A DNA stretch of 64,000 nucleotides from an uncultured bacterium (GCA_963727815.1 CAVSGV010000006.1:336851-400850); one strand, 5' to 3'. Counted from the first letter of the stretch, positions 25,429-62,021 are shown. A program made the numbers and translations. The notes: generated by a model from the sequence alone, not told the origin.

Positions 25429-25435
25429 CGAAAAC

Positions 25436-25498
25436 AAATCCCAAATCCCACCCCCCAAATCCCAAATTTTGGGATTTGGAATTTGGTCATTGGGATTT
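25436..25498. repeat. Heptamer (AAATCCC/GGGATTT) tandem-repeat hairpin
   Basis: aaatcccaaatcccaccccccaaatcccaaat followed by tttgggatttggaatttggtcattgggattt, between divergent smc and rpsF. Confidence 0.85.
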
Positions 25499-35919: not shown

Positions 35920-36370
35920 GGTTAGAAATTAGTAATTAGAAATTAGTTTATCTTTGTTTGGGATTTGGCAATTGGGAATTGGGATTTATTTGCGAAAGCA
36001 AATTGCTGGGTTGTTCGTGACTTGTTGAAGGTTTGCAGACTATTTTTCCTGATTAAGTTCGGGAAATCCTTTAAGTACTGCTCAACTTTAACTTGACGGC
36101 AACCCAGTTTTATTTTGGAACAGTTGCAGTATAGCATAATCGCGAAAATATTTCAAGAGGCGCTTTTCTCTAATTTTGCCATCGCGAATAACTCGAAGGG
36201 TCAGGATCGCGAATTCACGAATGCTCACTAATTTACGCGAATATACACTAATCAATATGCCTTGATCGATTCGGATTCGAGATCATTAGAGTAAATTGGA
36301 ATTTATTCGAGAATTAGAGAGCTGATCTTTCGCGTTATTCGTGACAAGAAAAATTCGCGAGGATAAGCGA
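35920..36370. repeat. Intergenic cluster of heptamer repeats and nested approx. 9-bp-period inverted repeats
   Basis: ttagaaattagtaattagaaattag; tttgggatttggcaattgggaattgggattt; cgcgaataactcgaa pairing with ttcgcgttattcgtg; cacgaat/cactaat arms pairing with attagag/attcgag arms. Confidence 0.7.
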
Positions 36371-40668: not shown

Positions 40669-41449
40669 ATGAAAATCGATATTCTAACTTTATTCCCCTC
40701 GATGTTCTCTCCGCTTGATGAAAGCATTATCGGCAAGGCAAAGAGCAGGGGCCTGCTCGATATCCGCGTCACGGATATCAGGAGTTTCGCCGCCGATAAG
40801 CACAGGACAGCGGATGATTCTCCATACGGAGGAGGGCCGGGGATGGTGTTAAAACCCGATCTGATTATTGAAGCCATCAACGAGATTAAATCCCAAATCT
40901 CAAATCCCAAATCCCAAACAAATCTCAAATCAGAACATCAAAATTCCAAACCACTTGTTATTTTGCTTTCGCCTGCCGGAATCACGCTTGATGATAAGAA
41001 AGCGCGGGAGCTGGCGAAAGAGGAACATCTGGTGCTCATCTGCGGGCATTACGAAGGCGTGGACCAGAGAGCCATCGACGAACTCGTTGATGAAGAGATT
41101 TCCATCGGAGATTACGTTCTTACCGGCGGAGAGATACCGGCGATGGTCCTTATTGATGCAGTATCAAGGTTCATTCCTGGAGTTCCTGGGAGACAAGTCA
41201 TCATCAAGCGAGGAATCTTTCTCTTTCAGCCTGCTTGAATATCCGCAATACACAAAACCAGCGAACTGTTTGGGCAGGGAAGTTCCGGAAGTGCTCCTGA
41301 GCGGCGATCACAAAAAGATAGCGAGCTGGAGAAGAGAAGAATCGATAAAGAACACTTTCTTCAGGCGGCCGGACCTTTTATCGAAGGCCGACATCACCAC
41401 GGAAGACAAAAAGCGCCTTGAAAGCATATTCACGGGAGAGGCCGAATGA
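40669..41449 (+). CDS. trmD: tRNA (guanine-N1)-methyltransferase (frameshift near 41185; in-frame heptamer-repeat insertion)
   Basis: DILTLFP, DDSPYGGGPGMV, CGHYEGVDQR, SIGDYVLTGGE, then LLEYPQYTKP, VPEVLLSGDH. Confidence 0.94.
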
Positions 41450-47857: not shown

Positions 47858-48445
47858 ATGGGAATAACAAATAAGATGATTACCATTCAAAATAAAATAT
47901 TTGAGTTAAGAGGACAGAAGGTAATGCTCGATAAGGATATTGCGGAATTATACGGTATTTCAACAAAAGCGCTGAATCAGGCGGTTAGAAGGAATGTTGA
48001 GAGATTCCCTGCGGATTTTATGTTCCAGCTGGCCTATAACGAGATCATCGATATGACAGCGATGAAACAAAGGAAGGGTTCAAGGTCACAAAATGTGACC
48101 TTGAACAGAGGCAAGAATATCAAATATTTGCCTTATGCTTTTACCCGGAATGGCGTAAATATGCTGGCGACAGTGCTAAAGTCCAGGATCGCGGTGCAAA
48201 GATCGATATTCATAATGCGCGCTTTTTCGGTCCTGGAGGAAGCTGTCGGGTCAAGGGGAAAGCAGATATTAAGCAGTCCGCAGGTCATCAAACAGTTATC
48301 GCTGCACTCGAAGGCGATAATGAGACTTTTCAAGGAAACGGGAATAAACAGCAAGAACATATCCTTGCTGAAAAAGCTTCAGGAAGAGATGGGCAAATTG
48401 ATCCAAAAGATAATAATCTCTTCCATTGTGAACGAAGGGAAATAA
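47858..48445 (+). CDS. ORF6N-domain DNA-binding protein
   Basis: RGQKVMLDKDIAELYG, LNQAVRRNVERFPADFMFQL, RSQNVTL, LPYAFT. Confidence 0.9.
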   Translation: MGITNKMITIQNKIFELRGQKVMLDKDIAELYGISTKALNQAVRRNVERFPADFMFQLAYNEIIDMTAMKQRKGSRSQNVTLNRGKNIKYLPYAFTRNGVNMLATVLKSRIAVQRSIFIMRAFSVLEEAVGSRGKQILSSPQVIKQLSLHSKAIMRLFKETGINSKNISLLKKLQEEMGKLIQKIIISSIVNEGK

Positions 48446-48455
48446 AAAGGTATAA

Positions 48456-48587
48456 ATGTTTAAGGTCATTTGCCGGTTCCCGATCAATTCGATAACGGAA
48501 GTATATCTCAGCGAGCAGGAGCTGAATGTTTGGCTGACCAGGGCGTTCTTAAGAGCGAGGATAATCAGTTACGAGAGGATTTCGTAG
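48456..48587 (+). CDS. Possible 43-aa small protein
   Basis: AAAGG SD, then MFKVICRFPINSITEVYLSEQELNVWLTRAFLRARIISYERIS*; ends just before the heptamer tract. Confidence 0.45.
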   Translation: MFKVICRFPINSITEVYLSEQELNVWLTRAFLRARIISYERIS

Positions 48588-48590
48588 AAA

Positions 48591-48660
48591 AGTTGCTAGT
48601 TGTCAGTTGCCAATTTCCAGTTGCCAGGTGCCAGTTGCTAGGTCCCAGTAAAAATGCAGT
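48591..48660 (+). repeat. Heptamer tandem repeat, 8 x AGTTGCY-like, upstream of the four-helix-bundle gene
   Basis: agttgct agttgtc agttgcc aatttcc agttgcc aggtgcc agttgct aggtccc, then agtaaaaatgca. Confidence 0.9.
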
Positions 48661-48677
48661 AAAGGAGAATTGAATAT

Positions 48678-49046
48678 ATGGTAAAGATCAAGGATTACAG
48701 AGATCTGGTAGTTTGGCAGAGGGCGCACAAATTGGTTCTGGCGATATATAGGGTCACAAGACAATTTCCTGCAGAAGAGAAATATGGGCTTGTTCAGCAG
48801 ATAAGGCGGTCAGCGGCTTCGATTCCAACAAACATAGCTGAAGGCACTGAAAGATATTCCAGGAAAGAATATCTACAATTTCTTTATATTAGCAGAGGCT
48901 CATTATCAGAAACAGATTATCATGTACTGTTAAGCTATGACCTTGAGTACATTTCGAGCGAAACATATAATATTCTGAGCACAATGATAATTGAAATCGG
49001 AAAGATGCTAAATGGCCTGATAAATGCACTTAAGCCCAGTTGCTAG
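48678..49046 (+). CDS. Four-helix-bundle protein (23S rRNA IVP / Avd-fold family)
   Basis: YRDLVVWQRA, FPAEEKYGLVQQIRRSAASIPTNIAEG, FLYISRGSLSE; SD AAGGAG. Confidence 0.93.
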   Translation: MVKIKDYRDLVVWQRAHKLVLAIYRVTRQFPAEEKYGLVQQIRRSAASIPTNIAEGTERYSRKEYLQFLYISRGSLSETDYHVLLSYDLEYISSETYNILSTMIIEIGKMLNGLINALKPSC

Positions 49047-49149
49047 TTTCTAGTTGCCAGCTTCCAGTTGTTAGTGAAAAATGCAATAAGCCCCTTGTAT
49101 AATATCTTTCCTGTTTTCACTAGCAACTAGCACCTAGTACCTGGCAACT
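49038..49149. repeat. Heptamer inverted-repeat hairpin (5 forward + 4 reverse AGTTGCY units)
   Basis: agttgct agtttct agttgcc agcttcc agttgtt agtgaaaa ... ttttcact agcaact agcacct agtacct ggcaact. Confidence 0.9.
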
Positions 49150-49170
49150 TGTTTTTCTCTGCTTTCCCCC

Positions 49171-49198
49171 TTGCTCCCGTCACAGCCCGGCGTATAAT
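49171..49198 (+). promoter_or_regulatory. Module promoter A (TTGCTC-16-TATAAT)
   Basis: ttgctc ccgtcacagcccggcg tataat; homologous to the promoters at 49886 and 50662. Confidence 0.7.
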
Positions 49199-49217
49199 TC
49201 CCCCTAGAGGTGAGAGA

Positions 49218-49721
49218 ATGAAAAAAATATTATTCCTGTTATTTCTGAGCGCGATGCTAATTCTGCCGAGTTCATCAGCGACGGTGAACAGCAAGAACGG
49301 CCTGGAGGTGGCGAACCCGAACAGGCTGGGGATATACATCGAGGACCTGGACCAGCACGCGATCAGCATAGGATTATCAAAGGATGATATAACGGCAAGA
49401 GTTAAGGCTAAATTGAGCCAGAGCAACATCAAGGCGGAGACGAATTCGGCGAAGAAGGCGTACTTGTATGTGAACATCAACACTTTCGGGGCGCCCTTGA
49501 CCAGTTTCAACATTTACGTAAGTTTTGACAGGAACGTCCGGTTCGACGCGGGCGATGACACTTACACTTCTTACGGAGCGCACACATATTTCAAGGGTTT
49601 CACGGGGATAGCGGAATCAAATAAAGCCGCGGGTCTCATCCTGCAGGCGCTGGACGGGTTACTTGACCAGTTCATAAGCGATTACACTGATGCCAACATC
49701 GCGAGGATGAGAAAGTACTGA
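49218..49721 (+). CDS. Hypothetical exported protein
   Basis: SD GAGGTG; signal peptide MKKILFLLFLSAMLILPSSSA. Confidence 0.8.
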   Translation: MKKILFLLFLSAMLILPSSSATVNSKNGLEVANPNRLGIYIEDLDQHAISIGLSKDDITARVKAKLSQSNIKAETNSAKKAYLYVNINTFGAPLTSFNIYVSFDRNVRFDAGDDTYTSYGAHTYFKGFTGIAESNKAAGLILQALDGLLDQFISDYTDANIARMRKY

Positions 49722-61217: not shown

Positions 61218-61302
61218 CAAAATCCCAAATCCCAACAAAGTGTCCTTCGGACATATTTAATATAAATTCATTGTTTGGATTTGGGATTTGAGATTTGGGA
61301 TT
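61205..61302. repeat. Heptamer (AAATCCC/GGGATTT) inverted-repeat hairpin between convergent genes
   Basis: aaaatcccaataacaaaatcccaaatcccaac ... ttggatttgggatttgagatttgggatt; overlaps both stop codons. Confidence 0.85.
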
Positions 61303-62021
61303 TAAAGTGAAACTATCTTAAGCGTGCCCCACGCGCCCATCTTGTCGTTCTTTATGATGAGCACGCCGTGAAGTCCTTTTATTTTCTTCGCCATGTTAAG
61401 CCCGTCCTCGATGGTCTCTTCATCCTTGACGACGTTGCCTATGGCGGTGGCGGCCGCATCGGCCAGCGCGCATGACTTTGCCGTGACCAGTATCGCATCG
61501 GCTGCGCCGAAAGATGAATGACCCGCCTGCGCGGCGACCGTGCAAACTCCCAGGGGAGTATTATACGGCGATATCTCGATGGCGATCTTTTCGGAAAATG
61601 GCGACTTGCCCGCGAACACGCCTATCCTCCTGGGCCTGTCTATCTTCACGAAAATGTCGCCGCCGTTCTCCACGATGACTTCTTTTGAATATTTCGCCAG
61701 GTTTTTCCCGACGGCCTCCGTCAGCGCTCCGTCTATGGAAGCCATGGGGCCCACGTTCGCGCGCTTTGCCGCCCAGGCCATTGTCTTGATGATCTTCGGA
61801 GCGAGAAGCGAGACAGCATAAGGCTTGAAGGTCTTTTCGAACTTGGGGTTCTTCGCGATGAATTCTTCCAGCTCTTTTTTTACTTTTTTCAAGATCTCAT
61901 GCGCGGCGGTGGTCAGGGCTTTTTCGGCGAACACGAGCATGTCCGTTTCTTTATCTATGACGGCGCTCCTGACGAGTCCCTTGGCGTTAATGAGTTTCCT
62001 GTATTTGAATTCCTGTTTCAT
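61302..62021 (-). CDS. UPF0280 / ApbE-like protein
   Basis: VGPMASIDGA, IVENGGDI, GHSSFGAADA, ALADAAATAIGN. Confidence 0.88.
   Translation of the reverse strand: MKQEFKYRKLINAKGLVRSAVIDKETDMLVFAEKALTTAAHEILKKVKKELEEFIAKNPKFEKTFKPYAVSLLAPKIIKTMAWAAKRANVGPMASIDGALTEAVGKNLAKYSKEVIVENGGDIFVKIDRPRRIGVFAGKSPFSEKIAIEISPYNTPLGVCTVAAQAGHSSFGAADAILVTAKSCALADAAATAIGNVVKDEETIEDGLNMAKKIKGLHGVLIIKNDKMGAWGTLKIVSL

What the first reader, a model, noticed from the sequence alone, without database searches (positions are those of the whole stretch)
48591..49149. Four-helix-bundle (Avd-fold) gene packaged in heptamer repeats: candidate minimal mobile or RNA-based unit
Seen: 8 forward AGTTGCY units + AAAATGCA, then SD and gene, then 5 forward units + AAAATGCA (the stop codon lies in the first unit), then 4 reverse units. 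The reverse arm can pair with either forward arm, looping out the gene, and recombination between the direct arms would leave an empty hairpin like those elsewhere in the window. Known: this fold occurs in 23S rRNA intervening-sequence ORFs and in the RNA-binding DGR protein Avd. Inference: the protein binds its periodic RNA or DNA and mediates spread or excision of the unit.
Basis: partly seen in the sequence, partly recalled or inferred. Interest (0 to 1): 0.8.

Follow-up and report, generated by a model that had tools for sequence, protein, structure and literature searches.

The report
Four-helix-bundle gene inside heptamer-repeat arms
A small gene of the family known from ribosomal-RNA intervening sequences sits between inverted runs of 7-base repeats; the same packaging recurs around relatives in many bacterial phyla, which ties this protein family of unknown function to the long-unexplained heptamer repeats of bacterial genomes.

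Summary
Window 48591-49149 contains 8.4 forward AGTTGCY units, an SD, a 122-aa PF05635/TIGR02436 gene, 5.4 forward units and 4.4 reverse units.

It is not a one-off. All 9 PF05635 loci of this genome show short-period arrays on both sides, each with its own unit. Over 107 loci from this genome, its class and many phyla, the upstream arm is complementary to the downstream arm in 82. The same test passes 6 of 200 control small ORFs.

- The repeat unit stays with the protein down to about 60% amino-acid identity.
- Whole cassettes are present or absent at orthologous sites in three congeneric comparisons.
- Dispersed solo arrays share the units of the resident genes.
- The 5' arm is purine/G-rich, and the sense-RNA duplex is usually the more stable one.

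Best reading: a free-standing version of the 23S-rRNA IVS element, built on STRR-like repeats, whose arms act in the transcript and are probably bound by the encoded pentameric protein. Binding and mobility mechanism are inferred. One genome with abundant arrays has no PF05635 gene. I found no paper that generalises this link.

The parts
48591..48649 (+). 5' arm: 8.4 tandem forward heptamers (AGTTGCY)
   Evidence: TRF; pattern count against shuffles; sequence
48650..48662 (+). AAAAATGCAGTAA tail after the 5' arm; direct repeat of 49077-49089
   Evidence: read
48662..48667 (+). Shine-Dalgarno AAGGAG, 10 nt before the ATG
   Evidence: read
48678..49046 (+). 122-aa PF05635/TIGR02436 four-helix-bundle protein (pI 8.99); R44-S48-N52-E55 motif; stop codon inside the 3' forward array
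   Evidence: invariant Q41, E55, E78 among 8 paralogues
49038..49075 (+). 3' forward array: 5.4 heptamers, 5' half of the local hairpin
   Evidence: TRF; fold
49076..49118 (+). hairpin loop region, beginning with GAAAAATGCAATAA
49119..49149 (+). reverse array: 4.4 units (ACTAGCA = reverse complement of the forward unit). Pairs with either forward arm: -37.5 kcal/mol with the 5' arm, -29.1 with the local arm
49149..49160 (+). T-rich run TTGTTTTTCTCT after the hairpin (terminator-like)

Best explanation
The element is one copy of a widespread cassette: a PF05635 ('23S rRNA IVS protein', Avd-fold) gene held between inverted arrays of tandem heptamers of the STRR type. In effect it is the 23S-rRNA intervening-sequence element living free between ordinary genes.

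**How I think it works**
1. The arms belong to the gene and travel with it. The whole cassette is gained and lost as a block (shown by comparison).
2. The arms are transcribed with the gene. In the RNA, the 5' arm and the 3' reverse arm pair into a long imperfect stem that brackets the ORF. This is supported by polarity and by the advantage of sense over antisense pairing. Such a stem is the kind of substrate RNase III cuts in the Coxiella IVS at its first heptamer.
3. In this copy the stem competes with a local forward/reverse hairpin plus U-run that looks like a terminator (folds computed; the switch itself is inferred).
4. The basic, probably pentameric protein recognises its own repeat unit, most likely as RNA (inferred from co-inheritance of unit and protein and from RNA binding by Avd).
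5. Solo arrays of the same unit elsewhere in the genome are derivatives or further targets of the same system (flavour sharing shown; direction of descent inferred).
For: **Generality**
- All 9 PF05635 loci of the genome show short-period arrays on both sides by eye, with at least 8 different units.
- Of 109 loci, TRF finds an array (period 6-11) upstream in 86, downstream in 85 and on both sides in 70. Period 7 dominates (57 upstream, 55 downstream), then period 8 (23 and 22).
- The arms are complementary beyond shuffles in 82 of 107 loci: own genome 5 of 9, class relatives 23 of 29, named contigs from many phyla 54 of 69. The control is 6 of 200 small ORFs of G000.
- The arms hug the ORF: median 23 nt from arm to start and 11 nt from stop to arm; arm length median 32.5 nt.

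**The unit follows the protein**
- Pairs from different genomes share the unit (d<=1) in 13 of 14 pairs at 80% identity or more, 9 of 14 at 70-80%, 36 of 70 at 60-70%, 42 of 420 at 50-60% and about 1% below 40%.
- This includes proteins 68-75% identical in contigs labelled Cloacimonadota, Nitrospirota and Nitrospinota.

**Gain and loss**
- G016 has the cassette; G012 and G025 lack it at the same site.
- G035 has it; G010 and G020 lack it.
- G026 has it beside tRNA-Ser; G014 lacks it there but has an 81%-identical cassette beside another tRNA.

**RNA level**
- 5' arm G>C in 71 loci, G<C in 9, equal in 2; purine-rich in 74, purine-poor in 6 (82 loci).
- Sense duplex more stable in 73 of 107 loci and in 41 of 55 clusters, p 3.5e-4.
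- G:U against A:C mismatches: 157 against 123.
- A sigma-54-like motif lies upstream of the arrays in 28 of 68 class loci, against 3 in each of two controls, which places the arrays in the 5' UTR.

**Link to the IVS and to protein function**
- The Coxiella IVS carries 3-4 GACAGAT heptamers before its S23p ORF, and RNase III cuts at the first repeat (PMC4990558, passages read).
- Protein: homology to 2gsc and 2rld, each entry with 5 chains. Median pI 9.1, and 82% of 131 proteins above pI 8. The Avd pentamer binds an RNA element.

**Solo arrays**
- In G000, 82 of 112 period-7 arrays fall within d<=1 of the 8 units of its own genes; each unit covers about 2% of heptamer space.
- In four relatives, 24 of 43 solos match their own genome's units, against a mean of 7.75 of 43 for other genomes' units.
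- In Aliinostoc, 86 of 176 match.
Against: - No binding, processing or expression data exist for this element. No RNA run holds it.
- The stems are imperfect: 2260 Watson-Crick pairs of 2816 aligned positions, with 276 transversion mismatches. The G:U excess is modest: 20 against 11 clusters, p 0.03.
- This window's own copy is atypical. Its unit is not purine-rich, its antisense arm duplex is the more stable one (-73.0 against -55.1), and the whole 576-nt fold is not better than shuffles (z -1.5).
- 25 of 107 loci fail the arm test. Some fail because of mis-set ORF starts or contig ends; others really lack arms.
- G082 is a complete 5.25-Mb cyanobacterial genome with no PF05635 match. Its only Avd-like gene is a DGR Avd next to an RT. 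It has 56 period-7 arrays per 100 kb, the highest density sampled. Such arrays therefore do not need this protein.
- Loci are not phylogenetically independent. The genome samples are small: 8 and 13 genomes, 27-400 kb each.
Confidence: 0.5

Rival explanations
1. REP/RAYT-like system. Each PF05635 paralogue is the trans-acting factor that spreads or maintains the dispersed hairpins of its own heptamer unit. The gene's flanks are simply the founding copies.
For: - One gene per unit with many same-unit solos: in G000, 9 AGTTGCC, 15 GAGATGC and 28 AAATCCC arrays not adjacent to a gene.
- Matching to the genome's own units exceeds matching to other genomes' units.
- PF05635-free relatives have 6 arrays in 356 kb, against 38 in 393 kb in PF05635-rich relatives. 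In the cyanobacterial sample, 5 of 6 PF05635-free genomes have 0-2 arrays per 100 kb, against 4-44 in 7 carriers.
- In G014, solos match the whole 90-nt hairpin unit of the cassette at 80-85% identity.
Against: - G082 has the densest arrays and no PF05635 gene.
- In Aliinostoc, abundant units (AATGACT 18, AAAATTC 13, AATAGTC 12 arrays in the sample) have no gene among the 5 found.
- The fold has no known nuclease or recombinase chemistry.
- Paralogues are old (24-38% identity), with no sign of recent bursts.
- G000 also holds two Y1 transposase matches that could act on hairpins, although no arrays flank them.
Confidence: 0.2
2. Host post-transcriptional regulator with a regulon. Each paralogue binds transcripts that carry its heptamer array in 5' UTRs, between cistrons or in 3' UTRs, and autoregulates through its own flanks. 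Mobility is incidental.
For: - Solos lie between genes of operons, for example directly before an RBS at C6:500526-500596.
- 62 of 112 arrays lie outside crude ORFs in a genome that is 90% coding.
- Conditional sigma-54-like promoters in 28 of 68 class loci.
- A preprint on Nostoc recF/recO speculates that an unidentified protein binds heptamer repeats and affects expression (bioRxiv 10.1101/2022.06.06.494920, passages read).
Against: - Cassettes are dispensable between congeners and move between sites.
- Closely related cassettes occur in different phyla.
- Cassettes sit in rRNA and tRNA operons: 10 of 139 loci lie within 250 nt of a tRNA gene. This fits a selfish element better than a core regulator.
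Confidence: 0.2
3. No functional tie. Heptamer arrays are generic slippage-prone intergenic repeats or terminators. PF05635 genes, being small orphan inserts in intergenic DNA, merely end up among them.
For: - Heptameric SSRs are reported as over-represented in bacteria and attributed to polymerase slippage (PMC4692102, passages read).
- In array-dense Aliinostoc, many ordinary genes are also bracketed by arrays.
- G082 has arrays without the gene.
- The 3' hairpin here looks like a terminator.
Against: - 82 of 107 PF05635 loci have complementary arms, against 6 of 200 control small ORFs.
- The unit is co-inherited with the protein across phyla at divergences where neutral DNA would be randomised.
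- The polarity of the arms relative to the gene.
- Cassette boundaries coincide with the outer ends of the arms.
Confidence: 0.08
4. Remnant or accessory gene of a diversity-generating retroelement (an Avd).
For: PF22296 bAvd-like just passes its cut-off (43.7 bits against 40). The fold is shared with Avd (PMC10053308, passage read).
Against: - NF033474 scores 51.2 bits, below its cut-off of 80.
- No RT among neighbours from 42 to 56 kb, and no RVT_1 match in the 70.5%-complete genome.
- Two true DGR Avd loci lack bracketing arms: G082 and phage contig L284.
Confidence: 0.02

Closest known systems
23S rRNA intervening sequences that encode an S23p/PF05635 ORF (Coxiella, Leptospira and others)
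   Same: Same protein family. The ORF is bracketed by sequences that pair into a stem. In Coxiella, 3-4 tandem heptamers (GACAGAT) precede the ORF, vary in number between strains, and RNase III cuts at the first one (PMC4990558, passages read). PF05635 ORFs also occur in inserts of CPR 16S and 23S genes (bioRxiv 10.1101/2024.02.27.582315, passages read).
   Different: This copy lies between protein-coding genes, not in rRNA; there is no rRNA match in 48000-49600. It has its own SD and a terminator-like hairpin. In relatives the cassette often carries its own sigma-54-like promoter.
STRR / heptameric simple-sequence repeats of cyanobacteria and Xanthomonas
   Same: Tandem 7-bp units, intergenic, often hairpin-forming, function unknown (PMC2670836, passage; PMC4692102, passages). 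All 5 PF05635 loci of Aliinostoc are flanked by such arrays. One carries GGGGA(C/T)T followed by CCCCAGT runs, the unit family that Rehm et al. report as enriched in Nostoc PCC 7120.
   Different: None of the papers I read links these repeats to a protein family or describes a gene nested in them. The STRR1-3 consensus sequences (Mazel 1990) are recalled, not seen. Vioque 1997 was seen only as a title in reference lists.
Avd of diversity-generating retroelements
   Same: Homologous fold: a basic pentameric barrel that binds a structured RNA element.
   Different: No RT and no TR/VR here. The two DGR Avd loci examined have no bracketing repeat arms.
REP/REPIN-RAYT systems
   Same: A single-copy gene flanked by inverted copies of a hairpin repeat that is also dispersed through the genome, with one repeat flavour per gene.
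   Different: The gene is not a Y1 transposase. The repeats are built of tandem heptamers rather than a fixed palindrome. One genome keeps dense arrays without the gene. This comparison rests on my own knowledge of REP/RAYT; I saw only a search listing for PMC3733652.

Membership tests
PF05635 / TIGR02436 four-helix-bundle protein | Profile score above the curated cut-off over the full length | tested here: met
   PF05635: 144.9 bits (cut-off 33.8), profile positions 1-106 of 106. TIGR02436: 138 bits (cut-off 24)
PF05635 / TIGR02436 four-helix-bundle protein | Homology to a solved pentameric four-helix-bundle structure | tested here: met
   2gsc (XCC0516) E 3.1e-22 and 2rld E 4.1e-9, each entry with 5 chains. 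This is a sequence comparison only; no model was built
PF05635 / TIGR02436 four-helix-bundle protein | Conserved R-x3-S-x3-N-x2-E motif (given as GxxRxxxSxxxNxxE in PMC3936711, passage read) | tested here: met
   R44, S48, N52 and E55 are read from the translation. The leading G is not at -3. E55 is invariant in the 8 paralogues
DGR accessory protein Avd | NF033474 equivalog score above cut-off | tested here: not met
   51.2 bits against a cut-off of 80
DGR accessory protein Avd | Adjacent reverse transcriptase | tested here: not met
   Neighbours are signal peptidase, RNase HII, UPF0102, ComM-like, ORF6N, EamA, permease and CstA. No RVT_1 match in G000, which is 70.5% complete
DGR accessory protein Avd | Template and variable repeat pair | not tested
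   No dedicated TR/VR search was run
23S rRNA intervening sequence | Inserted in a helix of 23S rRNA | tested here: not met
   No rRNA family match in 48000-49600 at E<=1. The flanks are protein-coding genes
23S rRNA intervening sequence | Ends pair into a stem that brackets a PF05635 ORF | tested here: met
   5' arm with reverse arm: -37.5 kcal/mol. Arm alignment: 29 Watson-Crick pairs of 36 (L001)
23S rRNA intervening sequence | Excision by RNase III | not testable with these tools
   Needs RNA end mapping or an in vitro cleavage assay
STRR / heptameric SSR | Tandem 7-bp units in intergenic DNA, often as inverted pairs that can form hairpins | tested here: met
   Genome-wide there are 112 period-7 arrays, against 23 of period 6 and 8 of period 8
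REP/RAYT | The flanked gene is a Y1 (IS200-like) transposase | tested here: not met
   The gene is PF05635. The two Y1_Tnp matches of G000 lie at C6:201758-203651, with no array between C6:192442 and 212949
Intrinsic terminator | GC-containing stem directly followed by a U-run | tested here: inconclusive
   Hairpin of -38.6 kcal/mol followed by TTGTTTTTCTCT. The consensus scan did not list it

The most novel reading that the evidence does not exclude
PF05635 proteins are the long-sought sequence-specific partners of bacterial heptamer repeats (STRR and related arrays). Each pentamer reads about five tandem 7-nt units of its own flavour. The gene-plus-arms cassette is a horizontally mobile element that seeds same-flavour repeat families across a genome. 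The classical 23S rRNA intervening sequences are the same element landed in rRNA.
Probability: 0.3. Interest if true: 0.9.

Novelty: new variant of a known kind. Interest (0 to 1): 0.72.

Why it matters
Three unexplained observations may be one system.

- **The protein family.** PF05635 is widespread and has solved structures but no assigned function. It is noticed in rRNA inserts and in cas loci (PMC3936711).
- **The rRNA intervening sequences.** Their origin is described as unclear in the Coxiella paper.
- **The repeats.** The excess of heptameric tandem repeats (STRR) in cyanobacteria, Xanthomonas and other bacteria is described as functionally unexplained in 2015. A 2022 preprint still asks for the protein that binds them.

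The link makes a direct experiment possible: protein against its own flanking repeat, with paralogue and flavour swaps. It also gives annotators a rule for recognising these cassettes. Finally, it suggests a compact family of proteins that may recognise nucleic acid in 7-nt units. If that is confirmed, it would be of interest for engineering.

Tried and rejected
- **Public reads.** The only holders of window:48300-49400 had 0.12-0.13 of its words, and no RNA holder is listed. Laying X1 and X2 gave a few short contigs, no joints and no excised or circular form. This is uninformative either way.
- **Empty allele of this cassette.** The downstream neighbour (49218-49718) has no homologue in 40 relatives, so synteny could not be used. 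L035 against G027 gave no DNA match. L018 against G016 and L023 against G028 gave only partial or paralogous matches.
- **Alignment-based search.** I used the single protein instead.
- **HEPN membership.** I had recalled this, but the HEPN survey PMC3710099 has 0 occurrences of IVS, S23, PF05635 or Avd. Dropped.
- **Rfam.** No family at the locus except a sub-threshold hammerhead hit on the opposite strand at 49246-49296 (17.3 bits against 52). Treated as chance.
- **Promoter search.** No sigma-54 spacing fits this copy when read. The sigma-70 scan gave only weak matches.
- **Clustering.** Single-linkage clustering of repeat units chained everything together. It was replaced by direct distance to seed units.
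- **Literature.** Searches found no paper linking PF05635 to flanking heptamer arrays beyond the Coxiella note. PMC4679880 (TAACTGA repeats) has no mention of 23S, IVS or four-helix. PMC146911 (Vioque 1997) is not held.
- **Supplements.** Supplementary gene lists of PMC4692102 could not be opened. They might show whether XCC0516 neighbours GGGAATC repeats.

Full report
**1. What is in the window**

Tandem Repeats Finder gives three period-7 arrays:
- 48591-48649, 8.4 copies, AGTTGCC;
- 49038-49075, 5.4 copies;
- 49119-49149, 4.4 copies, the reverse-complement unit.

A two-unit pattern occurs 11 times in the window, only inside these arrays. Shuffles give 0.66 on average. Between the arrays lie an AAGGAG SD and a 122-aa ORF (48678-49046). 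Its stop codon sits in the first downstream unit. Both forward arrays end in the same AAAAATGCA.TAA tail.

The ORF is a full-length PF05635 / TIGR02436 protein. It is homologous to the solved pentameric four-helix-bundle proteins 2gsc and 2rld and is basic (pI 8.99).

The downstream forward and reverse arrays fold into a hairpin of -38.6 kcal/mol (z -5.6) followed by a T-run. The reverse arm pairs even better with the distal 5' arm: -37.5 against -29.1 kcal/mol. The whole 576-nt fold is not better than shuffles (z -1.5).

**2. The pattern is a family trait**

The genome (1.68 Mb, 6 contigs, 70.5% complete) has 9 PF05635 loci, one of them frameshifted. In the printed flanks, every one has short-period arrays on both sides in inverted orientation. 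Each has its own unit: AGTTGCY, GAGATGN, AGTKWAC, GAGTRTK, AATGACC/AAATCCC, GRGGATG-like, AATGMCA, and a period-10 unit in two near-identical copies. The paralogues are only 24-38% identical to the window protein.

The family occurs in 37 of 41 genomes of the class, counting G000, usually in several copies. A pattern-based scan returned 71 further loci on contigs labelled as Cloacimonadota, Nitrospirota, Planctomycetes, Bacteroidetes, Chloroflexota, Cyanobacteria, Verrucomicrobia and others.

Over these 109 loci:
- TRF finds arrays of period 6-11 upstream in 86, downstream in 85 and on both sides in 70.
- Period 7 is commonest (57 upstream, 55 downstream), then period 8 (23 and 22).
- An ungapped test of upstream against downstream complementarity passes in 82 of 107 loci (by group).
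- The same test passes in 6 of 200 randomly drawn small ORFs of G000.
- The commonest architecture is forward array, gene, reverse array.

**3. The arms belong to the gene**

Between genomes, the repeat unit is shared (distance 1 or less) as follows:

| Protein identity | Pairs sharing the unit |
|---|---|
| 80% or more | 13 of 14 |
| 70-80% | 9 of 14 |
| 60-70% | 36 of 70 |
| 50-60% | 42 of 420 |
| below 40% | about 1% |

Proteins about 70% identical that share AAGGGGC/AAGGGTC, or about 60-69% identical that share AAGGATT, sit on contigs labelled as different phyla. At such protein divergence, unconstrained flanking DNA should be randomised. The unit is therefore either selected or moves with the gene, or both. 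Related proteins sometimes differ by one base in unit length (AAGGATT against AGAGGATT), in both arms.

**4. Cassettes come and go**

- In genus g13, G016 carries a sigma-54-like motif, forward AAGCTTA units, the gene and reverse units between two convergent genes. G012 has an unrelated 94-nt spacer there, and in G025 the two genes abut.
- In g11, G035 carries a cassette where G020 has 12 nt and G010 has 62 nt.
- In g15, G026 has a hairpin-gene-hairpin cassette 1-2 nt from the 5' end of tRNA-Ser. G014 lacks it at that tRNA but has an 81%-identical cassette abutting another tRNA. The 90-nt hairpin unit recurs at 80-85% identity at five or more other G014 sites.

The empty sites show no leftover same-unit hairpin. 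Overall, 10 of 139 loci lie within 250 nt of a tRNA gene, mostly co-oriented.

**5. Evidence for action in RNA**

- The 5' arm on the coding strand has G>C in 71 loci and G<C in 9. It is purine-rich in 74 and purine-poor in 6, of 82 loci.
- The sense-strand arm duplex is more stable than the antisense one in 73 of 107 loci. After collapsing to 55 protein clusters, this holds in 41 against 14 (p 3.5e-4).
- G:U-type mismatches outnumber A:C-type 157 to 123.
- In the class, 28 of 68 loci carry GGC-N7-AATTGCT-like motifs (sigma-54 spacing) upstream of the arrays, against 3 on the antisense strand and 3 downstream.
- The stems are imperfect, at 80% Watson-Crick pairs.
- The window's copy departs from the majority on polarity and on the sense-antisense comparison.

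**6. Solo arrays**

G000 has 112 period-7 arrays of 3 or more copies, against 23 of period 6 and 8 of period 8. Of the 112, 62 lie outside crude ORFs in a genome that is 90% coding. Of the 112, 82 lie within one mismatch of the eight units that flank its own PF05635 genes, and only 7 of these are next to a gene. Each unit covers about 2% of heptamer space.

In 100-kb samples of four relatives, 24 of 43 solo arrays match units of that genome's own genes. A mean of 7.75 of 43 match another genome's units.

Genomes of the class without PF05635 have 6 arrays in 356 kb. Genomes with 10-14 copies have 38 in 393 kb.

**7. Cyanobacteria and the STRR link**

All five PF05635 loci of Aliinostoc sp. are bracketed by heptamer arrays: GAGTGCT, CAGGGGG, GGGCATK, GGGGAYT with CCCCAGT, and TTGCGAA. 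A 400-kb sample holds 176 period-7 arrays, against 8 of period 6 and 11 of period 8. Of these, 86 match those units.

These arrays are the STRR-type repeats described as 7-bp, hairpin-forming and of unknown function (PMC2670836). The GGGGA(C/T)T family is the one studied in Nostoc PCC 7120 (PMC4692102).

In a wider sample, PF05635 carriers have 4-44 arrays per 100 kb, and five of six non-carriers have 0-2. The sixth, G082, has 56 per 100 kb and no PF05635 gene. Its single Avd-like gene is a genuine DGR Avd beside an RT. The protein is therefore not necessary for abundant arrays. In array-dense genomes, ordinary genes are also often bracketed by arrays.

**8. Comparison with what is known**

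- The closest described object is the 23S rRNA IVS with an S23p ORF. For Coxiella, tandem GACAGAT heptamers before the ORF, strain variation in their number and RNase III cleavage at the first repeat are reported (PMC4990558).
- The element here is not in rRNA.
- It is not a DGR part: NF033474 is below its cut-off, there is no RT nearby or in the assembly, and two DGR Avd loci lack arms.
- The logic resembles REP/RAYT, but the gene is not a Y1 transposase.
- I found no paper that states the general association.

**9. Verdict**

It led to a general, apparently undescribed architecture.

- Shown by comparison: the arms are part of a gene-plus-repeat cassette that is inherited, exchanged and lost as a unit, and whose repeat unit tracks the protein.
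- Supported but indirect: the arms act in the sense transcript.
- Inferred: the protein binds its repeats, RNase III processes the stem, and the solo arrays descend from cassettes.
- Open: how cassettes move, why the period is 7, and what maintains arrays in genomes without the gene.

Noticed in passing
window 25435-25498, 35922-35984, 40888-40931, 61220-61303: Other heptamer arrays and hairpins built of AAATCCC/TTGGGAT (plus TTAGAAA at 35922). This is the unit that flanks a different PF05635 copy at G000:C3:205329-205655, and it is the commonest flavour in the genome (29 arrays).
   Followed up: partly
L016, L025-L027, L031, L032, L034, L035, L037, L039, L178-L198 (upstream of the arrays): Motifs with sigma-54 promoter spacing (GGC-N7-AATTGCT) lie upstream of 28 of 68 PF05635 loci in this class. 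Controls: 3 antisense, 3 downstream. In other phyla the count is 4 of 71. The window's own copy has none.
   Followed up: partly
L004, L030, L033, L036, L038, L171, L179, L181, L182, L195: Cassettes sit within 250 nt of tRNA genes, mostly on the same strand. One lies between tRNA-Gly and tRNA-Val, and one ends 1-2 nt before tRNA-Ser. This suggests hitch-hiking on stable-RNA operons, as with rRNA IVSs.
   Followed up: partly
G000:C3:125724-126151: A PF05635 copy split by a frameshift into two matches. It is a pseudogene or an assembly error, and it is still flanked by AATGMCA / TTTGRAT arrays.
   Followed up: no
G000:C3:114163-114681 and 117683-118120: Two near-identical longer paralogues (143-145 aa) lie 3.5 kb apart. 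Both have period-10 arrays (AGGTTACATA-like) into which the ORF ends extend. Each is followed by a similar small secreted-protein gene, so a cassette plus its neighbour was duplicated in tandem.
   Followed up: no
L050 (upstream) and L093 (upstream): Very long perfect arrays, at least 150 nt of GGATTAA and of AGAAGGAT, lie before PF05635 genes on one 'delta proteobacterium' MAG. The Microcystis loci L055 and L056 have long CCCCTAT arrays downstream.
   Followed up: no
L032:2490-2528: A different dispersed 35-39-nt GC-hairpin repeat (GGGCGGGTTTAAAACCCGCCC core) is present at ten or more sites in G010 and G020 at 86-100% identity. It is unrelated to the heptamer arrays.
   Followed up: no
window 47858-48445: The gene directly upstream encodes an ORF6N-domain protein (PF10543, E 7.5e-30), a domain I know from phage and mobile-element proteins. 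The cassette may lie in a small accessory patch after comM.
   Followed up: no
G000:C6:435292-435322 and 447192-447222: Two identical AGTTGCY-type single arrays with at least 120 nt of identical flanks lie 12 kb apart. This indicates a duplicated segment.
   Followed up: no
L279 (G082:C1:4880286-4883594): A complete-looking DGR in a cyanobacterium: an FGE-sulfatase-like target gene, a bAvd (115 aa) and an RT (352 aa) in a row.
   Followed up: partly
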